This document shows, piece after piece, positions 4,481 through 56,227 of a stretch of 64,000 bases of DNA. A model generated the notes under the pieces. The model ran no database searches and was not told the DNA's origin. It saw only the letters and a list, made by a program, of their open reading frames with translations. Both the position numbers and the translations under genes were made by a program. Position 1 is the stretch's first letter; every line of letters begins with the position of its first letter. Origin of the DNA: Stegostoma tigrinum (taxonomy: Eukaryota); NCBI RefSeq assembly GCF_030684315.1, contig NC_081386.1, positions 17,369,914 through 17,433,913 on the forward strand. Reading direction: 5' to 3'.

Positions 4481-7400
4481 GTAAGATGGCTTTTTTTTAT
4501 TGATAAGGGGATATTTTCATTTAAAATGAAATCTTTGTGTATATTTTGTTTAGATACTGACCATGAAACAACTTGTGATAGTCATTTGTATCCTTGTTGA
4601 TTTTCCTGTTAATCACTTGAAAGATTGCATCCTGCTTGGTTTTTTGTAGCTATTTTATTGCAGAGTTATAATTGCCTTTATTGAATGCTAAATGGCCCTT
4701 TTATAATATTTTTGAGATCATCAGGTTTGTGTCTTTGGCCAACTAATGTTCTGTTTCATCAATAGTATGCTCTCCATTATAGGAACAGAAGTAGTGCTGG
4801 CTCAAAATTGCGTACTTTTAAGCTCTGGTTCATGTACCATTCATGATCGGGTAATGGCTATCTTCATGATAGCCCAGTCATTTTTAAATGATCAGTAATA
4901 CTGCCTTCATAGCATCCCCTCCATCAATATTTTGAGTCACCTATGACTGGAAAATCAACAGCAACAATCTCAAATATAGTGGCTGCATGAGCAGGTATTT
5001 GATTAAGATTCACTTGTTTAAATACGCCAAAGTTCCTCTTGTCAACAGTGCATAAGTCAATTTGTTGGAATAGGTGCTGCTTCAACGACGATCAAGCACC
5101 TTGATACTGTCCAGTAGAAAGCAGTTTAATTAGTATCCAATCGATTTTCTTAAAAGGCTCATTCCTTGCATCATTGTTGTACTATGATCTAGAGTGCACT
5201 GCCAGAAAGGACAATATAAGCAGATTCTGAAGGAAATTAGATGGATACTTGAAAAGGAAAACATTTTCGGAACAATAGAACAAGATCAGGCCAGCCGATA
5301 TCAGCATGGTGTATCAGTTAGTTTCCTATGCTGAGATTTAATGTACTGCTGGAATTCCCAAACATCTGACCATTGCCTGGAAGAACAAGGCAATAGGTGC
5401 ATGGCAGCACCAGAATCTCCATAGTTCTGTCTGTTTTTAACCATTCTGATTTCAGCCTGGACTACTTTAATTCTGCATCTCTGATCGAAGTCCTGGAATT
5501 CACAATTTGAACATCTATTTTTGTTAGGTTGTGTAGATTTCTCTGAAAAGAAATCTCTTAAGCCAGTGCAGCAGTTGATGGACTTTTAGGTGCAAGTTTT
5601 GTTGACTGCAGTTTGATTTTTACCTGTGCTCGTTTGAATTCTGTTGTCTAGAATCAGACCCTGCCCAAAGCCTCCCCAGGATGATAAATCTCTTCTGGAT
5701 GTTTTCAAGATTCCTGCTCACTTGCATGCTGTTGAGGAGGCTCCAATATTTAGACTGGTTCTTTTCATTGCAAGGATACTCGTGCTAAAAGCTTTTTAGT
5801 GTAATTATTGAAATTTGCTAAGGAACTGACTCTCTTGTGTCTCAGTATAACTGGGAAATGGTTCTGCACATTTTTGAAATAAGTGTCAGCAATTTTAAAA
5901 TTGGCTTACTCTTCAGTGATAGATTAACTTTGTAATTAAAAGCCCATTTTCTGTCCTGAATCCACTTTTATTTTTATAAAGCACACTGCACTGAATTACC
6001 ACTCTTAAGTAAACCAAGAATTAGTTTTGATGAAAAATTTACAAGATCTAAAATGGAGACCAATTGCCCACGACAGTTTTTTTTTTGTGCACTAATGTGC
6101 ATATGAATTTGAGTGGAAACTTGAAGAAAGGGTAATGCTTTCCAACCAGCTGTACCATGTGCCCATTTTGCTGACTTCAATCAGCAGAACTTCCACTTTG
6201 AAACAGTGGTAAATTAATAAAACTGTAACCAAGCGTGGCATGAAAAAATTCAATTCAATAGATCCGTTGAGCCCAATCCTGCACAGACAGTTGAAGAATT
6301 TTTGAGAGTGAACAATGACATCAAAGGCACATTTGAAGTTTAATGTGACGTAAAGATGTCAGGAGTTAGAGAAGGCTAAATAAATTGGGAAATCATGGTT
6401 AATTAATATTGATCTTACAGCAAGGAGGAATGATGAACAAAACTAGTTCCAAATTCATTCCTGCAAGAGTGAATTAAGTACAAAATTGATATGAATTTTG
6501 ATTTTAACAAAGCAACAATGCAGTTTGTTGCAAGTGTATTAGAAGTAAATTATAGCTTGAATTGGATAGAAATATGGAATTTAAAGAAAGCATAGTACCG
6601 ATACTGTGATTTTTTTGAAACAATTAATGTATTGAATTATTATTTAATTGTGAGGGAAGAGTAAGTTCATTTATTGGATTGCAATTGTTTTTTTGACTTT
6701 TATCTTGTCCCCAGAGTGAGAGAAACTCCAGATAGGGGCAATGTTGAAGGCATGGAGGTATTGGAATTCTTGTGGGTAAAGCAATTTGTTAAAACAAAAC
6801 AGGAAACATGATGGATTTATGGATTAGTAAGTTCAGTTACCGACAAAAGAGATCGACGTAGAAGGCCTGAACATGGAATCTGTGACTGGACTTCGAAGCC
6901 AGTAGCTTCCTAGTTATAACAGCACTTGTAATCTTCTAAAATGAGTTTCTGTTGATGTTATCATTGGTAACCTTAAGCTGAACAAAATGTCTTTCAAAGA
7001 TTTAAAAACTTGATTTTTATTGCTGCATTTGGAGTGAAGAGCAGATTATGCTTCTGTTATTGCAATATGGGGACTGGTGTTTATGATGCTTAGATAGTCG
7101 CCCTGAAGGAAGCCAAAAGTGTCATACGAATTGCTAACAAATTAGAGTGAGTTTGTAGGATGAGTGAAAAGATCATTGATATGATCTGATGTTCTAATGT
7201 ATGAGCTCTTGGCTATAACGGAACGCTTAATAGGAAAGTAGATAGTCAGAAACCAGGTAGCAAGCTATATGGTTAAAATTAGTTGTATGTACAAGCTGCC
7301 AAACACTGTCAGAAGCTTGGAAACATGTGAAATAGTAACTTGATTGACCTGTGTTGATGAGGAAAGTTCCTAGAATATGTGATGGAGGCTGTAAAATCAT

Positions 7401-25429: not shown

Positions 25430-26937
25430 TGCGGGTGAACATTTGCTTAATATGGAAAGTCATCTTGGGGCCTGGCATAGGGGTGAGGGAGGTGGTGTGG
25501 GGGCAAGTGTAGCACTTCCTGCGGTTGCAGGAGAAGGTGCCGGGTGTGGTGGGGTTGGAGGGGAGTGTGGAGCATTCAAGGGAGTCACGGAGAGCGTGGT
25601 CTCTCTGGAAGGCAGACAAGGGTGGGGATGGAAAAATGTCTTGGGTGGTGGGGTTGAATTGTAGATGGCGGAAGCATCGAAGGATGGTGCGTTGTATCCG
25701 GAGGTTGGTGGGGTGGTGTGTGAGAACGAGGGGGATCCTCCTGGGGCAGTTGTGGCGGGGGCAGGGTGTGAGGGATGTGTTGCGGGAGACGTGGTCAAGG
25801 GCGTTCTTGACCATTGCTGGGGGAAAGTTGCGGTCCTTGAAGAACATGGACATCTGGGATGTGCGGGAGTGGAATGCCTCCTCCTGGGAGCAGATGCGGC
25901 GGAGGCGGAGGAATTGGCAATAGGGAATGGAATTTTTGCAGCAGGGTGGGTGGGAGGAGGTATATTCTAGGTAGCTGTGGGAGTCGGTGGGCTTGAAATA
26001 GACATCAATTTCTAGCTGGGTACCTGAGATGGAGACTGAGGTCCAGGAAGGTGAGGGATGTGTTGGAGATGGGCCAGGTGAACTTGAGGTTGGGTTGGAA
26101 GGTGTAGGTCCAGTCCCTATACACCTGTATTCCTCATGCAGATGGCCTCAAGTCCCTCCGTTTCTTCCTGTCCCGCAGGCCCGACCAGTCCCCCTCCTCC
26201 GACACCCTCATGGGCCTAGCCTAACTCGTCCTCACCCTCAACAACTTCTCTTTGGATTCCTCCCACTTCCTACAGACAAAGCGGGTTGCCATGGGCCCAA
26301 GCTATGCCTGCCTCTTTGTAGGTTACGTGGAACAGTCCCTCTTCCGCACCTACACAGGGCCCAAACCCCACCTCTTCCTCTGTTACATTGATGACTGTAT
26401 CGGCACCACCTCTTGCTCCCAAGAGGAGTTCGAACAGTTCATCCACTTCACCAACACCTTCCACCCCAACCCTGCAGCCCAATGGCATCAATGTGGACTT
26501 CACAAGCTGCAAAATCTCCCCTTCCCCCACTGCATCCCAAAACCAGCCCAGTTAGTCCCCTCCCCCCACTGCATCCCAAAATCAGCCCAGTCTGTCTCTA
26601 TCTCCCTCACCTGTTCTTCCTCTCACCCATCCCTTCCTCCCACCTCAAGCCGCACCTCCATTTCCTACCTACTAACCTCATCCCGCCTCCTTGACCTGTC
26701 CGTCTTCCCTGGACTGACCTATCCCCTACCTACCTCCTCACCTATACTCTACTCTCCTCTCTACCTACCTTCTTTTCTCTTCATCTTTGGTCCGCCTCTC
26801 CCTTTCTCCCTATTTATTCTAGAGCCCTCTCCCCATCCCCCCTCTCTGATGAAGGGTCTAGGCCTGAAATGTCAGCGTTTGTGCTTCTGAGATGCTGCTT
26901 GGCCTGCTGTGTTCATCCAGCTTCACACTTTGTTGTC
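25424..26937. mobile_element. Rearranged Penelope-like element (inverted middle segment, RT segment, 3' tail)
   Basis: Plus part: AMGPSYACLFVGYVE...YIDDC (Penelope RT). Minus part: RIPLVLTHHP...CNRRKCYTC. Tail is very similar to the copy at 37.2-37.7 kb. Confidence 0.9.
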
Positions 26938-37200: not shown

Positions 37201-37734
37201 AGAGATAATGGGAACTGCAGATGCTGGAGATTCCAAGATAATAAAATGTGAGGCTGGATGAACACAGCAGGCCAAGCAGCATCTCAGGAGCACAAAAGCT
37301 GACGTTTCGGGCCTAGACCCTTCATCAGAGAGGGGGATGGGGGGAGGGAACTGGAATAAATAGGGAGAGAGGGGGAGGCGGACCGAAGATGGAGAGTAAA
37401 GAAGATAGGTGGAGAGAGTGTAGGTGGGGAGGTAGGGAGGGGATAGGTCAGTCCAGGGAAGACGGACAGGTCAAGGAGGTGGGATGAGGTTAGTAGGTAG
37501 TGGGGGGTGCGGCTAGGGGTGGGAGGAAGGGATGGGTGAGAGGAAGAACCGATTAGGGAGGCAGAGACAGGTTGGACTGGTTTTGGGATGCAGTGGGTGG
37601 GGGGGGAAGAGCTGGGCTGGTTGTGTGGTGCAGTGGGGGGAGGGGACGAACTGGGCTGGTTGAGGGATGCAGTAGGGGAAGGGGAGATTTTGAAACTGGT
37701 GAAGTCCACATTGATACCATATGGCTGCAGGGTT
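37201..37734 (-). mobile_element. Penelope-like pseudo-LTR / 3' tail, young copy with intact hammerhead core
   Basis: Flanked by CCATTAAGAATC (37189-37200) and CCATTAAGCATC (37735-37746). Retains CpGs. Highly similar to 26471-26937. Confidence 0.9.
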
Positions 37735-40619: not shown

Positions 40620-41598
40620 AAAACTCAACTTCTTTATAGATTTATTCCAAAAATGCAAGAATACATTTTCCCAGCATCAGTACCACATTTATACATGTGA
40701 ACTTTTAAAGAACAATCTTCCTTTGGAAAAGAAAAATCAAATTTCTGCTGGTAAATGTAGAAAAGAATTGTCAATAAATACAAGTACTATTTTGCAAAAA
40801 GGTGAACCCCCCATCCCCGCGCAGTGTTCAACATTTGAATGATTACTGTAGAAAAGTATAACTACAGATAGGTGACATTTGTGCAATTCACTGCTATAAA
40901 ACATTGTGAATAATCTATTTGAGAATATACAGTGGAGCCTCAGTTATGTGCTTCCATTACGTGCATTCTCAATTATAGCTTATGTACGATTTTCAAACAG
41001 TTCCTGACTCAGCTGGATAAGTAGACAATTAGACATCCAGTGTTTGGTTGAATTTACTATCTGTGCAGCTGATGCTCAGGGGACAGGAGACTATAACAGC
41101 CAAGGTTGTCAAGCATTCATTAAAAATGTTCAACTTTTAATATAGAAAAGATTGGATGTTATCTACATGCACTACGAGTTTGATTAGGCCATCCAAAAAG
41201 ATACAACTGAATCAAAAATAACCACTGTTCGACTAAGTTTAAGGGATTGCAACCCATTGAATTTTCATTACTTATACAGAGGGTTCCCTCACTGCGCCAG
41301 CAGCAGGTAACTGGGATTCCACTGCCATGTTCTCCCCAATACAAGACATTTACACAAATCAGATTGAAAAGTATAACTGTTTAGTTTACTCCATCTTCAA
41401 CAGTAGTGGTGGTAAAGAAAAAAAATACATTAGTTAGTTAGTCACAAAACCATTTTCTAAAAAAAAACAAGGTTTAATAACGTGTCTGTTGAACAGGAAA
41501 AACATTTGTGAAGAGATAGTTGGTGTACACATTGAATAAGACTACCAAGTACAGACAAATCTCAAAAACAGAGACTAACTGCTACAAACATTGGTACA
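40620..41598 (-). other. SLTM: SLTM 3'UTR (about 1 kb)
   Basis: From the stop codon to AATAAA on the minus strand (tttatt at 40641-40646), with U/GU-rich sequence downstream. Confidence 0.7.
40641..40646 (-). terminator. Probable SLTM polyadenylation signal
   Basis: AATAAA on the minus strand, followed by TATAAA and a U/GU-rich stretch. Confidence 0.65.
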
Positions 41599-41737
41599 TC
41601 AGAATCTTCGTGGAGCACCCCCTTTGAATGGTTTAAAACGAGCATCTCCTGATCCATGTATTCCTTTGGAGCCTGAGACACTGCCTCCTTGCATTGTGTT
41701 GTTGGTGATCTGCACAATTCTGTTTGCTACAGAAGGA
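41599..41737 (-). CDS. SLTM: SLTM terminal coding exon
   Basis: actgtAG|T, encodes (S)PSVANRIVQITNNTMQGG...RFKPFKGGAPRRF then TGA. The C-terminus matches the remembered SLTM end FKPFKGGPPRRF. Confidence 0.95.
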
Positions 41738-42680
41738 CTACAGTGGGCAATGAAAAAACATAAGATACTAGTGAAGAATTCTGATCAGTGGCTACAAATA
41801 ACTTGCATTTAAACCTTAAGACAAAAAATATTAAAACTGTAGCAAAACATGCTAAATGAAGCAAAACTAAGTAATTGAGCAACATAACTGTTGCAACTTT
41901 TTTCTAAAGGTAGTTTTTGAATTAACCTAACACCAACCATCAAGAGATAATAAAGTCACTTTGGACTGTCAATAATCTGTAGAAGACTTTCCTCATGAAT
42001 TAAGTCATCTTTTAATTTGTTGTATCAAAAGCTTTCAATAGAAAGCAAAAGGAAGCATTAAAGAGCCACTAATCAGCATCTTCATGAGTTCAAATTTGTT
42101 CTGTGCAGCCGGAACATTTTAGACGTACTAACAGGAGTCAGTTCTACATTTTGAGAAGTGAATACTCAGAATTGAAGAGCGCCCATGTCAACAAGTGCAA
42201 AGTTACTGCTTGAAGCTTCAAATGTAGTTACGTGTGGTCAGTGTAAAGAAGAATGTAACTATTTAGTGGGTGGGCCATTTTTTTGTCTGATCAAAATACT
42301 TTAAGCGCACGCTTAACCATTCTTTTATCTCGGTTGCAAAGATTCCCACACAGTTTGAGGCAAAGTCTTCCTTCAAGTTGTAACTGTTGAGTATGGGTAA
42401 TTAATTCAGGTTGAGGTAGCACAACACCAAATCAAATTTATCACCAACGAAATGCCAACTTATAGGCAGGGGCAACAGAAGATTTATTAAAGAAAAATAA
42501 GGAAACCTTTTTGATGTTGGAGCACTGTACAGTGAACCAATGCAAAACTGACATGTTGCCCAAGTTTTGCAAGTGAACCAGAATTTTTATGACAATGCTA
42601 GTTTCATGATGATTGTGGAATTAAAGAATTTATGTTCCATATTGGCAGATGTCTCGACCATGCTCAAACTTATCACAACC

Positions 42681-43818
42681 TACTGAACTTGTGGTAGAGA
42701 TTTTAAATTGCAGACAAGGTTTAACCTGGCTACAACCTGAGCAAAGTAGTCAATATCTAAATAACCTACAAGGGAAAGTTGAGGCAAAAATCAAAAATGT
42801 TTTTCAAGAAAGATTAAGAATTAATAGAAAAAAAAGCTTTTCTGACTGGATACTGAAGCACAATGCAGGAAAGAAAGATCAAAAAGGAGAAAAATCACTA
42901 AAAGTGACTCACTGAGCATTGCTGGATACATTTGGAACTGTGAAGAGAGCCAATCACATCAGTCTATTTCTGTCTTTCTTAAAAAGGTTTTCTAAACAGC
43001 CTAAAAGGGCATCATCTGGCTTAGATGGCTGGTCTACCATGCAGAGTTTTTGCAACAGCATGGTTTCAGTTTCTGCACTGGTTTGGGTTACCATGAAGGA
43101 CTCTACTCCTCAATCTGTCACCAGAGATGTGGCAACCCTTTGGTTAAACCACTACCAGTCATCTCTTTCCAATGATGTAGGACTGGCAAACTGTCCATTA
43201 ATTTTGATTTTGGCTAAGTTACTCACTGCTGCAAAACATGTATTTGGAGTGAAACATGGCTTCTTTAGCAATGAAATCGAAGACCCTAACAGAATCTACA
43301 ATTGTAAAACTGGATGAATTTCTACTTTCTTTTGGAAAAGAATTCAAAATTTACAGTGGACCTCCCAAAAAAAACTTGAACTCATTAAGCCTTGGGTTTT
43401 TCAAATTTTAAAATCCTATATGAAATATTCCATGCTGTTGGAAAAACTCTGCATTGTAGACCAGCCATCTGAGCTAAACAATGCTCTTTTAGGCAGTTTA
43501 GAAAACTTTTTTTTAAGGAAGGCAGAAATAGACTGATGTGATTGCTGGATAAATTTGGAACTGCGAAGAGAGCCGATGTTCAGTGAGTCACTTGTAGTAA
43601 TTTTTCTCCTTTTTGATCTTTTTTCCTGCATTGTACTTCAATATCCAATCAGAAAAGCATTTTTTTTCTTTCTATTAATTTGAAATCTTTCTTGAAAAAC
43701 ATTTTTGATTTTTGCCTCAACTTTCCATTGTAGGTTATTTAGATAGTGACTACTTTGCTCAGGTTGTAGCCAGGTTAAACCTTGTCTGTAGTTTAACATC
43801 TCTACCACAAGTTCAGCA
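42681..43818. repeat. Long inverted repeat: arms 42681-43063 and 43430-43818, spacer about 365 bp
   Basis: The left arm aligns to the reverse complement of the right arm along its whole length (roughly 90% by eye), except one 31-bp block in the same orientation in both arms. Confidence 0.95.
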
Positions 43819-44639
43819 TCTGCATTTGCAGGGCGAGAACTGATCAGATCATCTAGAGTTCCTTAACACCATAGGATTTTCTGAGGTGCCTTACGTTTAA
43901 TGTAATTTACAGTGAACCATCTAGCTGAAACGCGAACCAATTATATAATGAATTGTAATGTTAATACGATTTGAGCTTATGTTGACAAATGGCCAAAAGA
44001 ATTCATAGGCTGACCACAGGAAATTGTAGGGGCATATAATCTGCATGCTGTGAACTTGAAAATAAAAAAATTAAGCATGAAAGCTACAGAAAAATAAAAT
44101 GCAAAAAGACAGATATTTCCAGTACTTTGAGAACCACCGGCCCAAGTTGCTGCGCAAGTTGACAGGCAATGATTGAACCAATCATGGCACACAATCAAGT
44201 CTAAACATCACAACTGAGGTGATGTCCTGAATAAAGCATTAGTTTTCTTATAAATTTCATTCTTGTACTTAATGGGCTCAGGAATCAAAATAGTACTTGA
44301 ATAAGGGAAGGCCCAACTTTATTTAAACAATTTTCAAAGCTTGATTTTTGTTTTAGGGATGGTATTAGACATTTGACATTGGGGCATCCACAGGCAGAAG
44401 GCCCAAATTCTGGCACACGTAAGGGAAAGAATTGTGGACAATTGCTCTTGTTTATGACAATCTTAGGATCTTGGCAGGAAATGTCGGTAGACCTACTGCT
44501 GTGGGCAAGAATTAGCTTCTACGCACATTCAGCAAATTGCTATACTTGCAGGAAATATTCAAGAAAAACAGTAACCCACTGAATAAATCAAAACACCATG
44601 TGGTGTTCCAATTTAAGCAAGCCAGCCTTGCCTTTGGAG

Positions 44640-45680
44640 GTCATATGTTGGCATGGATAGAGGTGGGGTTCACTAGAATATAATAGTTAGGATGGGGGCA
44701 TGTTTTCAGGATGGCAATCTGTAACTTAGTAGTGTGCTGCAAGGATCAGTGGGCCACAACTGTTTACAACAAATAATGATGATTGTGGAAGAAGAAACTG
44801 AATGTACTATTGCCAAATTTACAGGTGAGATAAAAACATGTGGGAAGGCAAGTAGTGAGGATGTCACAAAGAACATGCAGAGGGATACAGACAGACTACA
44901 AGAGTGGGTAAAATTGTGCCAGATGGAATATGTGGGGAAATGAGGGCTTGTGCACTTTAGCAGGAATAGAGGAGCTGAATATTAACTAGATGGAGAAAAA
45001 CTGCAGAAATATGAGGGGGGGGGGGAAAAGAGGGGAGGGAGGAGAGAAGATTTAGGATTCTTCATTCACGAATCAAAAACACCAAAAGGTCAGCAAGCAA
45101 CAGAGAAGTGAAAAAGAATGTTGGCCTTTATTTTAAATCAAATGGAGTACAAGTAGAGAGGTTTTGCTAAAACGATACAAGTCACTTGTTTGACCACAGC
45201 TGGAAAACCATGAACAGTTTAGGCCCCTTAAAAGATCGAAAGATACACTGGCATTGGAGGTAGTCCAAATATCGGCGCTGTGCTAACAGGTATGGAGAAA
45301 CTGTTTTATGAAGAGAATTAAGTAGATTGGGCCTGTACTTGTTGGAATATAGTAAAGCGACAGGTGCCTTCATTATGAGATTCTTACACAAACTAACAAA
45401 TGAGGTGCAGAAAGGCTGTTTCCTATCATGAGCAAGTGTAAGGCGAGAGGACATAATCTCAGAGGATTGAGATTCCGTGGAACTCTTTACCAAAGACAGC
45501 TATTGAGGCTGAGTTATTATCTCAGGGCTGTAATGGGCAGAATTTTAATCACTAAGGGAATCAAGTTTTGTGGGGAACAGCCAGAAGAGTGAAACTGAGG
45601 AACATCAGATTAGCTGTGACATCTCAATGAATGGCACAACAACTCAATGGGCTGAATGGCCTACTTCTACTTCAATGTCA
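44640..45680 (+). mobile_element. Degenerate CR1-type LINE fragment
   Basis: Translates LQGSVG...ECTIAKFTGEIK...MQRDTDRLQEWVKLCQME; CR1-like tail near 45650. Confidence 0.8.
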
Positions 45681-46169
45681 AATAAAGTCAAATCCTCAGA
45701 TCAACATGTTCTGATGTCAACAATGCTGCTGTTCAAAAACTCCAGGGTATATGCTATTTTAAACTGTTTTGGTTATAAACAAGTCTTCCAAGATCAACAT
45801 CAAGATTGATGTTAGCATTTTCAACAATACTTGAGGTGGTTTACAGCATACTGTTGTTATGGAAGCTGAAATCTCAAATAAACAATACAAATGGAATGAT
45901 TCATGCTATCAAATGAAAGACACCAATAAAATTGCTGCCATCTGTACAAATTCACCAAATAATTTCAAGAAATAAAACCATAGTTTCCAGCCTACTTTAG
46001 ATCCTCGCCATTAAAACTTGTAATAATAATTCTGCAAGAAGATATGAAGGAGCATAGTGTAAAAGCCTTTTCCTCATCCTTCTCTTCAGAGATGTGTTGC
46101 ATCAAACAATGCTCACTGGTTATTAAATGCAGAGATGATCAAATTTGGAACACTAGGGCAAGACAAACG

Positions 46170-46500
46170 TAGCACTGCTGCCTCACAGCACTAGGGATTG
46201 CTGGCTCAATTCCGGCCTCGGGTGGCTATCTGTGTGGAGTTTGCATGTTGTCCCATGTTTGTGTGGGTTTCAACCGGGTGCTCCGGTTTCTTTCCACAAT
46301 TCAAAGATGTGTTGGTTAGGTGGATTGATCATGCCAAATTGCCCACAGTATCTAGGAATTTGTAGGCTCATTGGATTAGCCATGGTAAATACAGAGTTAT
46401 AGGAATAAGATAAGGGTTTGGGTCTGGTTGGGATGCTCTTTGGCGGGTTGGTGCAGATTCAAAGGGCAAAAATGATCTCTTCCTACACTGTAGGGTATCT
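46170..46500 (+). mobile_element. HE1-type SINE
   Basis: tagcactgctgcctcacagc...tgtgtggagtttgca...tacactgtaggg, the same body as other copies. Confidence 0.88.
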
Positions 46501-47000
46501 ATGCTAATTTCACAAGCATCCAAAATAGTACCAATTATTTATTTAAATTTTGGTAAGAGATGCATAAGTTACTTTTGTACAACTATCTAAATGGAAACAC
46601 TCAGAACACATCATGTTTATGAGGTGAGAATGCTTTTAATGCATTAGAAATTTTTTCTTTTTACACAGATAAAACAAAGTTTGCTTTTCCCAACATAGAT
46701 ACAGCAATGAACCTTTAACATTTGACTACACAAGTAAGCAAACTATTTTGATGGGCTGGTATTCCTCAATGTTTAATTGCGAATAAACCTTTCACAGTGA
46801 ACATCCAATAGGCTTCACCAAGCTAACCATCCAAAAACATCTAGAAGCAATACACTTATCCTAAGTAGATTTTCAGAAAAAAGTAAGCCCCTTTAATATA
46901 AAAACCAGTCAAAAATGTAATACCATACAGAAAGAGTTTACAATACATATATTCAAAGTTACAGGCAATCAAAACAGCTAACAAAATGCAACTTCAATAC

Positions 47001-47167
47001 CTGGATAGTGGAATCATGCCAGGACCACGACTGTCGCTCATTCGTCTCATGTCTTGATAGCCAGTGCCTTGAGAACCAGGTCCAGGATGCCAACTGTTCC
47101 GTGGTCCTCCTGAATCACGACCATGACGTTCTACCACTACATGTCTGTTATCATGGTAGTGAGATTG
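47001..47167 (-). CDS. SLTM: SLTM penultimate coding exon
   Basis: ttcccAG|CAA, encodes QSHYHDNRHVVVERHGRDSGGPRNSWHPGPGSQGTGYQDMRRMSDSRGPGMIPLS, donor AG|GTATTG; 167 bp. Confidence 0.94.
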
Positions 47168-47554
47168 CTGGGAAGAGATTAAAATTAACTATGGACACAA
47201 TAATAACACTTCCATTTTGCAAATTAGTATTATGCTGCACTTCTGAATGAAATCTTTAAAATAACCTACTTGTGGAAACACAACTGATTTCATGTTTTCT
47301 CCAAATATTGAAGTAAATACAATAAATACAGCTAACTATGCTAAGTAGGTCTGCATCAGCCAACACTTATACATGTAACATCAGGTATATAAAATGCATG
47401 GTCACCCCAAGTTGAAAGCAAGCAGCTGTGTTTCGTTTGTGTCAATCAAAATTAAAGCATAGTTCTTTACAAAACAATTCATCCTTAAACAGAACAAAGC
47501 TGCTAGCACCTGTTATCTCATAACTCTAATTAATTTTGTTCAACTTTTCCGTAC

Positions 47555-55741: not shown

Positions 55742-56227
55742 GATCAAAACAAGTTGCTGGAAAAGCTCAGCAGGTCTGGCAGCATCCGAGAAGGAAATTA
55801 AAAATCAGAGGAGTTAATGTTTTGGGTCCAGTGACCCTTCCTCAGAACCAACGGTAGCTGGGAAACTGCTGGTTTATATGCAGAAAATACAGAGAGAATG
55901 GGGTAGGGAGTAAACTATGGAATAAAGGATAGAGCCCAAAGAGAGAGAAGAGCAGTTGGACAGACAAAGCAGTCAATAATGATCTGGCTAGGAGGTTTAA
56001 ATGCTGCTTTGTTACCAATTCCTTTGTCTATTCAGCTGCTCTTCTCTCTCTTTGGGCTCTGTCCTTCATCCCATCATTTACTCCCTAACCCAGCCCCCCT
56101 CCCTATTTTCTGGAAGTAAGCCAATATTTTTCCAGCTATCATCAGTTCTGGGAAAGGGTCACCAGAACCAAAACACTAATTGATTTTTTTTCTTTACAGA
56201 TCTGCATCTGCAGTTCTTTGGGTTTTT
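55742..56227. mobile_element. Head-to-head inverted Penelope-tail element with 14-bp TSD
   Basis: Flanked by ACTTTGAAATTCAG at 55728-55741 and 56228-56241. The two halves are reverse complements, e.g. agagcccaaagagagagaagagcag / ctgctcttctctctctttgggctct. Confidence 0.88.

What the first reader, a model, noticed from the sequence alone, without database searches (positions are those of the whole stretch)
42681..43818. ~385-bp-arm inverted repeat in the last intron of SLTM
Seen: 42681-43063 is the reverse complement of 43430-43818 (about 90% by eye) around a ~365-bp spacer. The arms resemble none of the SINE, LINE or Penelope families elsewhere in the window, and I see no TSD at the outer edges. 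It lies about 940 nt upstream of the terminal 3' splice site. Known: long intronic duplexes are ADAR substrates and can alter splicing. Inference: either an unrecognised foldback/MITE-like element or a locus-specific inverted duplication giving a long dsRNA stem in the pre-mRNA of an RNA-binding protein gene.
Basis: partly seen in the sequence, partly recalled or inferred. Interest (0 to 1): 0.7.

Follow-up and report, generated by a model that had tools for sequence, protein, structure and literature searches.

The report
Edited backwards copy in SLTM intron
About 380 bases of an ordinary intron sit copied backwards 366 bases away, a copy that two related species lack and that a DNA-copying slip likely made; one RNA fragment from it carries 13 A-to-G changes, likely RNA editing of the predicted hairpin, and the whole is probably a tolerated accident, not a gene switch.

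Summary
Real, explained, of known kinds. The arms (42683-43063 / 43430-43816) are 85.7% complementary and lie in the last intron (splice joint 41737-47001 in three RNA-like runs). It is not a MITE. The arm has no dispersed copy found in the genome, apart from ~50 nt of a SINE-like head that it truncates. Three of three runs from two related organisms keep the left arm and spacer but lack the right arm, with 13 letters in its place. The junctions carry 3-nt and 5-nt microhomologies, the pattern of a '3-2-1-4' template-switch inverted duplication; a 29-nt piece inside the copy is re-inverted. One 151-nt contig of a spliced-RNA run of the same species has 14 differences, all A>G on the gene's strand. 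Thirteen are absent from DNA runs, all lie in the arm, and none follows a G: A-to-I hyper-editing, though likely one molecule and without matched DNA. No sign of selected function: arms about 6.6% diverged, no wobble bias, normal splicing seen. Loss of the arm in the relatives is not fully excluded. The scan noted similar edited intronic inverted duplications on other DNA (LZTR1, HJURP; unchecked notes).

The parts
42683..43063 (.). Left arm: the original, resident intron sequence (donor of the copy)
   Evidence: Present and collinear on one + strand contig in organism B (X5 piece 42200-43113) and partly covered in organism C; 2 candidates in the own-genome search, both at this locus
43430..43816 (.). 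Right arm: inverted copy of the left arm, absent from organisms B and C
   Evidence: 85.7% complementary; joint 43425->43812 skipping 386 nt with 13 other letters in X5, X13, X20
43064..43429 (.). Spacer / predicted loop, not inverted relative to the relatives
   Evidence: X5 contig runs 43093-43425 then 43812-44300 on the same strand
43012..43175 (+). Dispersed SINE-like repeat straddling the inner edge of the left arm; only its first ~50 nt were copied into the right arm
   Evidence: 39 dispersed matches among 40 scored of 508 candidates, all within 43006-43175; right-arm matches limited to 43427-43491; extents. 'SINE-like' rests on a recalled resemblance to tRNA A/B boxes, not on a library hit
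43545..43573 (.). 29-nt micro-inversion inside the right arm (direct to 42922-42950), between ATTG and a CAAT-like word
   Evidence: 37-nt direct match at 92%; contexts; organism B is collinear with the left arm here, so the flip is in the copy
43430..43432 (+). CCA microhomology at the inner switch point
   Evidence: Hand parse of the 13 junction letters against the contexts printed
43812..43816 (+). TTCAG microhomology at the return switch point
   Evidence: The relatives resume at 43812 while the arm's complementarity runs to 43816
43454..43511 (-). Cluster of 13 A>G changes (T>C on +) in one RNA contig, likely A-to-I editing; 43485 is a DNA variant and is not counted
   Evidence: X14 record 43395-43544, 14 differences all T>C; only 43485 is also in DNA runs X1 and X2
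41738..47000 (-). Last intron of the SAP+RRM (SAFB/SLTM-type) gene
   Evidence: Splice joint 41737->47001 in X14, X24, X17; SAP and RRM_1 hits on the same strand upstream of the window
47001..47174 (-). Penultimate exon
   Evidence: Contig pieces of X14, X24, X17
41599..41737 (-). Coding part of the terminal exon (3' UTR continues to lower coordinates)
   Evidence: Sequence read directly; spliced contigs

Best explanation
The right arm is an inverted copy of 379 bases of neighbouring intron, absent from two related organisms and likely made by one microhomology-guided template switch during DNA replication or repair; in the pre-mRNA the two arms are predicted to pair into a ~330-bp stem that ADAR likely hyper-edits, and the structure is probably a tolerated by-product that leaves with the spliced intron. 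Steps. (1) Shown: the relatives hold left arm and spacer but not the right arm. (2) Inferred: the nascent strand left its template after CCA (43430-43432), primed on the opposite strand at the CCA of 43061-43063, copied back to about 42688, and returned through TTCAG, replacing about 5 nt (switch order 3-2-1-4). The 29-nt internal flip is either two more switches in the same event or a later micro-inversion. (3) Predicted: a long duplex on the sense strand. (4) Shown for one contig: 13 clustered A>G changes in the arm; inferred to be ADAR's work. (5) Inferred: no selected role.
For: Empty site with the same 13 letters in 3 of 3 non-A runs laid with the arm region at 80% likeness (X5, X13, organism B, two studies; X20, organism C). 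Arm search gave 2 candidates, both local; the same tool gave 4911 candidates for a palindromic multicopy element in this window. The copy cuts a dispersed repeat after ~50 nt. Microhomologies at both junctions (hand parse). Both arms share 5 states against B and C (42690, 42691, 42736, 42812, 43000). Fold: -596.5 kcal/mol and 334 arm-arm pairs, against -242 to -268 for four same-length pieces of the intron. Editing: 13 of 34 sense-strand As in the arm part against 0 of 16 in the spacer part of the same contig (Fisher p 0.004) and 0 of 110 including two other intronic contigs of that run. The 5' neighbour is A or U at 12 of 13 edited against 9 of 21 unedited As (p 0.005) and is never G. 13 changes in 151 nt exceeds the 5% hyper-editing threshold of PMC5625713. 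No selection signal: 7 G-U wobbles against 10 A-C mismatches and 9 transversions on the sense strand; canonical splicing in A and C alike.
Against: The editing rests on one read-length contig (likely one amplified fragment). Its run has no library record and no matched DNA, and sites on one molecule are not independent. B and C are the closest pair by raw counts, so loss in their common ancestor is not excluded by outgroup logic. With the B/C letters at 42690-42691 the donor end resembles the empty-site junction at 11 of 13 columns (hand parse), which fits a longer return microhomology but also a remnant of a deleted arm. Only 40 of 152 difference rows were shown. Replication slip and break repair cannot be told apart from sequence.
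Confidence: 0.78

Rival explanations
1. The duplication is older than the split of A from B and C, and the right arm was deleted once in a B+C ancestor by slippage between short CCA repeats.
For: B and C are closest by raw counts: A differs from both at 16 of 397 flank positions; about 8 of 490 are B-only and about 17 of 530 C-only (derived by hand tables 3 and 8). Arm divergence (about 6.6%) is close to the A-B distance (5.7-6.6% on the two longest left-side pieces). The junction resembles the arm's end at 11 of 13 columns with B/C letters. The right arm has more private changes than the left (at most 14 against 6; p 0.12).
Against: It needs a deletion that starts exactly at the arm's inner junction and spares spacer and left arm, plus two further shared changes in the 14-nt remnant, plus arm-to-arm homogenisation at 42690-42691. 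Five sites unite the two A arms against B and C.
Confidence: 0.09
2. The hairpin has been recruited: pairing and editing tune splicing of the last intron, 3'-end formation, elongation or nuclear retention of SLTM, possibly as feedback on editing.
For: The stem is long and edited. SLTM was a validated negative hit in a human reporter screen for editing regulators (bioRxiv 10.1101/2024.11.22.624788, passages). Inverted SINE pairs lower expression (PMC5080714, abstract).
Against: Absent in two relatives that splice the same joint (C shown). The stem ends 945 nt from the 3' and 3184 nt from the 5' splice site and encloses no known exon. No wobble bias. The same preprint found no fall in overall editing on SLTM knockdown.
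Confidence: 0.07
3. The 13 T>C letters are not editing but a haplotype of that individual, a paralogous copy, or a library artefact.
For: One contig, no matched DNA, library not on record.
Against: All 14 differences are one class, on the strand expected for this gene, confined to the arm, with the ADAR neighbour pattern. The contig spans the unique spacer-arm junction. The spliced contig and two other intronic contigs of the run show none in the tables. No paralogue found.
Confidence: 0.04
4. An unrecognised foldback transposon or MITE with 385-bp terminal inverted repeats inserted here.
For: Long arms around a spacer; the genome does carry palindromic multicopy elements. The own-genome search warns that no match does not prove rarity.
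Against: The relatives keep the left arm and spacer and lack only the right arm; no TSD; no dispersed copies; no transposase hit in 10 of 10 open frames.
Confidence: 0.01
5. Assembly artefact.
For: X1 and X2 may come from the assembly's own study.
Against: The arms differ at about 25 substitutions plus indels and a micro-inversion; short-read contigs bridge both junctions; X14, from another sample and study, bridges the inner junction.
Confidence: 0.01

Closest known systems
Four-point template switch, type 3-2-1-4 / 1-4-3-2 (Loytynoja and Goldman 2017, PMC5453318; passages and section 6 read)
   Same: Switch points fall in the order 3-2-1-4, the copied fragment is reverse-complemented, an inverted repeat results, and the spacer is not inverted. 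That type was 31% of their high-confidence human-chimp events.
   Different: [quoted passage not shown] This one also holds an internal 29-nt flip and is old enough to have decayed.
Human sub-kilobase inverted duplications (Sudmant et al. 2015, PMC4617611; passages read)
   Same: 54% of their sequenced inversions were inverted duplications, nearly all under 1 kb and within 5 kb of the other copy, not typically tied to retrotransposition: the same size and geometry.
   Different: Those are human polymorphisms; this one is present in all organism-A samples whose contigs reach its junctions (S1, S2, S6), and editing was seen.
CHM exon-12 inverted duplication (PMC8756506; passages read)
   Same: Intragenic inverted duplication with 8-bp and 4-bp junction microhomology, ascribed to FoSTeS/MMBIR, with a predicted pre-mRNA hairpin and 274-nt loop.
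   Different: That copy is 1,752 bp and includes an exon, which is skipped and causes disease. Here both arms are intronic, no exon is enclosed, and normal splicing is seen.
Hyper-edited intronic dsRNA (Porath et al. 2017, PMC5625713; passages read)
   Same: Dense A-to-G clusters in long duplexes with G depleted 5' of the site; elephant shark brain is among their 21 species, with 200,171 unique sites.
   Different: 77% of their sites lie in annotated repeats (inverted SINE pairs, palindromic Harbinger). This duplex is mostly non-repeat sequence paired by a local duplication.
Template-switch-born hairpins and miRNAs (bioRxiv 10.1101/2023.04.19.537475; passages read)
   Same: A single switch creates a complete intronic RNA hairpin that is transcribed with the host gene.
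   Different: Their stems are 30-55 nt and feed the miRNA pathway; this one is about 330 bp with a 366-nt loop. 'ADAR' and 'editing' do not occur in that main text.

Membership tests
Template-switch inverted duplication (3-2-1-4 / FoSTeS-MMBIR type) | Ancestral-type allele lacks the copy but keeps donor and spacer | tested here: met
   Joint 43425->43812 in X5, X13, X20; left arm and spacer collinear
Template-switch inverted duplication (3-2-1-4 / FoSTeS-MMBIR type) | Inserted sequence is the reverse complement of nearby DNA | tested here: met
Template-switch inverted duplication (3-2-1-4 / FoSTeS-MMBIR type) | Microhomology at both switch points, little sequence lost | tested here: met
   CCA and TTCAG, about 5 nt replaced (hand parse); a 3-nt match alone is weak
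Template-switch inverted duplication (3-2-1-4 / FoSTeS-MMBIR type) | Polarity: gain in this lineage rather than loss in the relatives | tested here: inconclusive
   Two relatives lack it, but their branching order is not known from my calls
Template-switch inverted duplication (3-2-1-4 / FoSTeS-MMBIR type) | Formed at a replication fork rather than in break repair | not testable with these tools
   Both leave the same sequence
MITE / foldback DNA transposon | Many dispersed copies of the whole element | tested here: not met
   positive control
MITE / foldback DNA transposon | Empty site lacks both arms and the spacer | tested here: not met
   Only the right arm is missing
MITE / foldback DNA transposon | Target-site duplication | tested here: not met
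   Outer flanks; junction letters
ADAR hyper-edited duplex | Cluster of A>G on the transcribed strand above 5% of read length | tested here: met
   13 of 151 nt in one X14 contig; threshold from PMC5625713
ADAR hyper-edited duplex | Sites lie in a long duplex, with G depleted 5' of the site | tested here: met
   10 of 13 paired to the left arm in the MFE, 3 at an A-C mismatch or bulge; 0 of 13 with 5' G
ADAR hyper-edited duplex | Absent from DNA of the same individual, seen in several molecules | tested here: inconclusive
   Absent from X1 and X2 (other samples); no DNA of S6; one contig only
Selected regulatory RNA structure | Conservation and compensatory or wobble-biased change | tested here: not met
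   Absent in B and C; 7 G-U against 10 A-C; no Rfam match at E up to 1
Selected regulatory RNA structure | Measurable effect on splicing, retention or expression | not testable with these tools
   Contigs drop rare isoforms; only the canonical joint was among the rows shown (15 of 166 joints)
SLTM (SAFB family) | SAP and RRM domains upstream of a long charged tail | tested here: met
   PF02037 E 2e-11 and PF00076 E 4e-5 on the same strand upstream of the window; E/R-rich exons in the window. That these exons share one transcript was not shown directly
SLTM (SAFB family) | Orthology to SLTM rather than SAFB/SAFB2 | not tested
   A MINDY_DUB exon lies on the opposite strand; the MINDY2-SLTM neighbourhood is recalled from human and comes from no call

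The most novel reading that the evidence does not exclude
A single template switch turned plain intron into a full-size ADAR substrate in one step, inside the gene of a reported editing modifier, and this lineage now uses the stem to tune SLTM output. More broadly, transposon-free inverted duplications would be a recurrent, uncounted source of edited self-dsRNA whose birth can be dated against empty sites.
Probability: 0.07. Interest if true: 0.6.

Novelty: new member of a known kind. Interest (0 to 1): 0.3.

Why it matters
As it stands it is a clean, dated example that joins two known things at one locus: a sub-kilobase template-switch inverted duplication, with its empty site in relatives, and hyper-editing of the resulting intronic duplex. 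It shows that non-repeat DNA can become an ADAR target in one mutation. The relatives give a natural 'before' state, so the cost of a new long duplex in a last intron is directly testable. It would matter more only if the stem proved to change SLTM splicing or level, for which there is no evidence here.

Tried and rejected
Coding or retrocopy origin: the arm holds open frames of 96 and 133 codons, but 0 of 10 frames hit Pfam at E up to 1, and a six-frame genome search found only this locus plus one match at E 0.54. Known RNA family: none in 41000-47500. Tandem repeat: none in the element. Selection for pairing: no G-U excess on the sense strand, and both strands fold alike (-596.5 against -599.9). 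Arm homogenisation: the outer 133 nt have 5 substitutions against 20 in the other 245, not significant (p 0.13). Faster decay of the copy: 6 against at most 14 private changes (p 0.12); a vote of 20 repeat copies adds two to each side. No RNA holder was on record in the run list, and no piece of X14 or X24 was shown over the non-repeat part of the left arm: neither counts for or against. The 90% cut-off would drop contigs edited more heavily than the one seen. PDB search of the RRM exon gave only generic RRM proteins. Background: 264 kb (the window plus 20 stretches) held 33 local inverted pairs, most in sequence repeated elsewhere in the sample, so editable duplexes look common in this genome. 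No earlier scan note lies near this place. Literature: (listings and abstract starts only) showed no paper on this locus, or on template-switch duplications as editing substrates; the library lacks most subscription papers, and supplements of PMC5453318 and of the two preprints were not seen.

Full report
Observation. A self-comparison of the window finds 42683-43063 complementary to 43430-43816 over 391 columns at 85.7%, E 1.7e-124, around 366 nt. Aligned in parts, the outer 242 columns have 14 substitutions and the inner 113 have 12. Between them a 29-nt piece of the right arm (43545-43573) lies in direct orientation to 42922-42950, between ATTG and a CAAT-like word. Setting aside three columns that belong to an indel, and 43485, where DNA runs carry the left-arm letter, 25 substitutions remain in about 376 columns (6.6%; count by hand).

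Gene context. Contigs of X14 and X24 (organism A) and X17 (organism C) join 41737 to 47001 across a CT..AC intron on the minus strand. The repeat ends 945 nt from the 3' and 3184 nt from the 5' splice site. SAP and RRM exons lie upstream on the same strand beyond the window, and a MINDY deubiquitinase exon lies on the other strand.

Not a transposon. The left arm as query gave 2 candidates in the 3.2-Gb genome, both here. Its translation gave nothing else better than E 0.54. The tool warns that it skips very common words, so I ran a control: a palindromic element at 55800-56200 gave 4911 candidates. The wider region matches dispersed copies only at 43006-43175 (39 matches among 40 scored of 508 candidates), a SINE-like repeat that straddles the inner edge of the left arm. 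The right arm holds only its first ~50 nt. So the right arm is the copy, and it was made after that repeat inserted.

Empty site. One search listed 24 runs; I laid 8. In all three runs from other organisms laid on the arm region at 80% likeness (X5 and X13, organism B, two studies; X20, organism C) one contig joins 43425 to 43812, skipping 386 nt, with the same 13 letters, ATATCCCAGGTAA, between. Left arm and spacer are present and collinear. By hand, the first eight of these letters align to 43426-43432 with one mismatch and one extra A, ending in the CCA that also begins the donor on the opposite strand. The relatives resume at TTCAG (43812-43816), which is also the donor's end (contexts). 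About 5 nt were thus replaced by 379 nt. The switch points fall in the order 3-2-1-4, a type that PMC5453318 (passages and section 6 read) reports as creating an inverted repeat. The size and spacing match the commonest class of human inversion-type variants, under 1 kb and within 5 kb (PMC4617611, passages), and the junctions resemble the CHM case (PMC8756506, passages). DNA contigs of X1 and X2 bridge both junctions in organism A; they may be the assembly's own study, but X14, from another sample and study, also bridges the inner junction.

Polarity. Five positions unite both A arms against B and C (42690, 42691, 42736, 42812, 43000), six unite the right arm with B against the left, and at most 14 set the right arm apart (only 40 of 152 rows were shown, so the last figure is an upper bound). 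This fits duplication on the A branch followed by roughly even decay. Against it, B and C are the closest pair by raw counts, so a single loss in their ancestor is possible. With their letters at 42690-42691 the donor end matches the junction at 11 of 13 columns (hand parse). That can be read as a longer microhomology guiding the return switch, or as a remnant of a deleted arm. I prefer gain, because loss needs a deletion starting exactly at the arm's inner junction plus further shared changes. An outgroup would settle it.

Editing. The sense strand folds at -596.5 kcal/mol with 334 arm-arm pairs and uninterrupted runs up to 43 bp, against -242 to -268 for four same-length intron pieces. Run X14 has no library record but holds a spliced 3,867-nt contig, so it is RNA. 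One of its contigs (43395-43544, 151 nt, depth 23.6) has 14 differences, all T>C on the + strand, that is A>G on the gene's strand. One (43485) is also in DNA runs X1 and X2 and is dropped; it is the only one preceded by G. The other 13 fall on 34 As of the arm part, with none on the 16 As of the spacer part (p 0.004) and none on 94 As of two other intronic contigs of the run. Twelve of 13 follow A or U, against 9 of 21 unedited As (p 0.005). Ten are paired to the left arm in the fold and three sit at A-C mismatches or a bulge. This meets the read-level definition and neighbour pattern in PMC5625713 (passages), which also reports 200,171 sites in elephant shark brain. Limits: a read-length contig is likely one amplified molecule, so the p-values overstate independence; DNA of that sample was not available.

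Function. Nothing points to selection. The repeat is missing in relatives roughly 6-9% away (piece counts), arm mismatches give 7 wobbles against 10 A-C pairs on the sense strand, no exon is enclosed, and the canonical joint is the only splice-type joint among the 15 of 166 shown. Contigs drop rare isoforms, so a small effect is not excluded. A human screen lists SLTM as a negative hit on an editing reporter but found no fall in overall editing on knockdown (bioRxiv 10.1101/2024.11.22.624788, passages). Inverted SINE pairs can lower expression (PMC5080714, abstract). These are leads for the recruitment rival, not evidence for it.

Novelty and verdict. Both halves are known kinds. My searches (listings only) showed no paper on this locus or on template-switch duplications as editing substrates, within a library that lacks most subscription papers. 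Unchecked notes of this scan describe similar intronic inverted duplications elsewhere, two of them with editing, which suggests a recurrent class; I did not test them. Verdict: real, a new member of a known kind, probably a tolerated by-product; interest 0.3.

Noticed in passing
window 55814-56179: A second hairpin-forming element in another intron of the same gene (71-nt core arms, 87% complementary, 52-nt spacer). It is a member of a high-copy palindromic family with ~190-nt and ~390-nt forms (4911 candidates), MITE-like, and a likely further editing substrate.
   Followed up: partly
L036:892-1363, L039:8448-8630, L041:4273-4451, L040:6961-7155 and others: Self-complementary elements of about 180-470 nt recur in the sampled stretches, some 95-96% perfect: a young palindromic repeat family, not characterised here.
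   Followed up: no
L037:3853-4088 / 5085-5322 and L030:7976-8044: Local inverted pairs with no other match in the 264-kb sample; they may be further locus-specific inverted duplications. Genome-wide copy number not checked.
   Followed up: no
window 26468-26937 / 37237-37734: A 510-column, 80.6% inverted pair 10 kb apart, each with a 39-nt tandem array; looks like two copies of a dispersed retroelement end, in the region downstream of the first MINDY exon on the + strand.
   Followed up: no
window 43485: The assembly has T where DNA contigs of X1 and X2 and the X14 contig have C, the letter that pairs with the left arm: an allele or an assembly error.
   Followed up: partly
window 42690-42691: Two adjacent letters differ between both A arms and both relatives; possibly one event, and possibly copied from arm to arm after the duplication.
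   Followed up: partly
window 41805-41970 and 46727-46902: Unedited intronic fragments in RNA run X14 show that unspliced last-intron RNA was captured in that library.
   Followed up: yes
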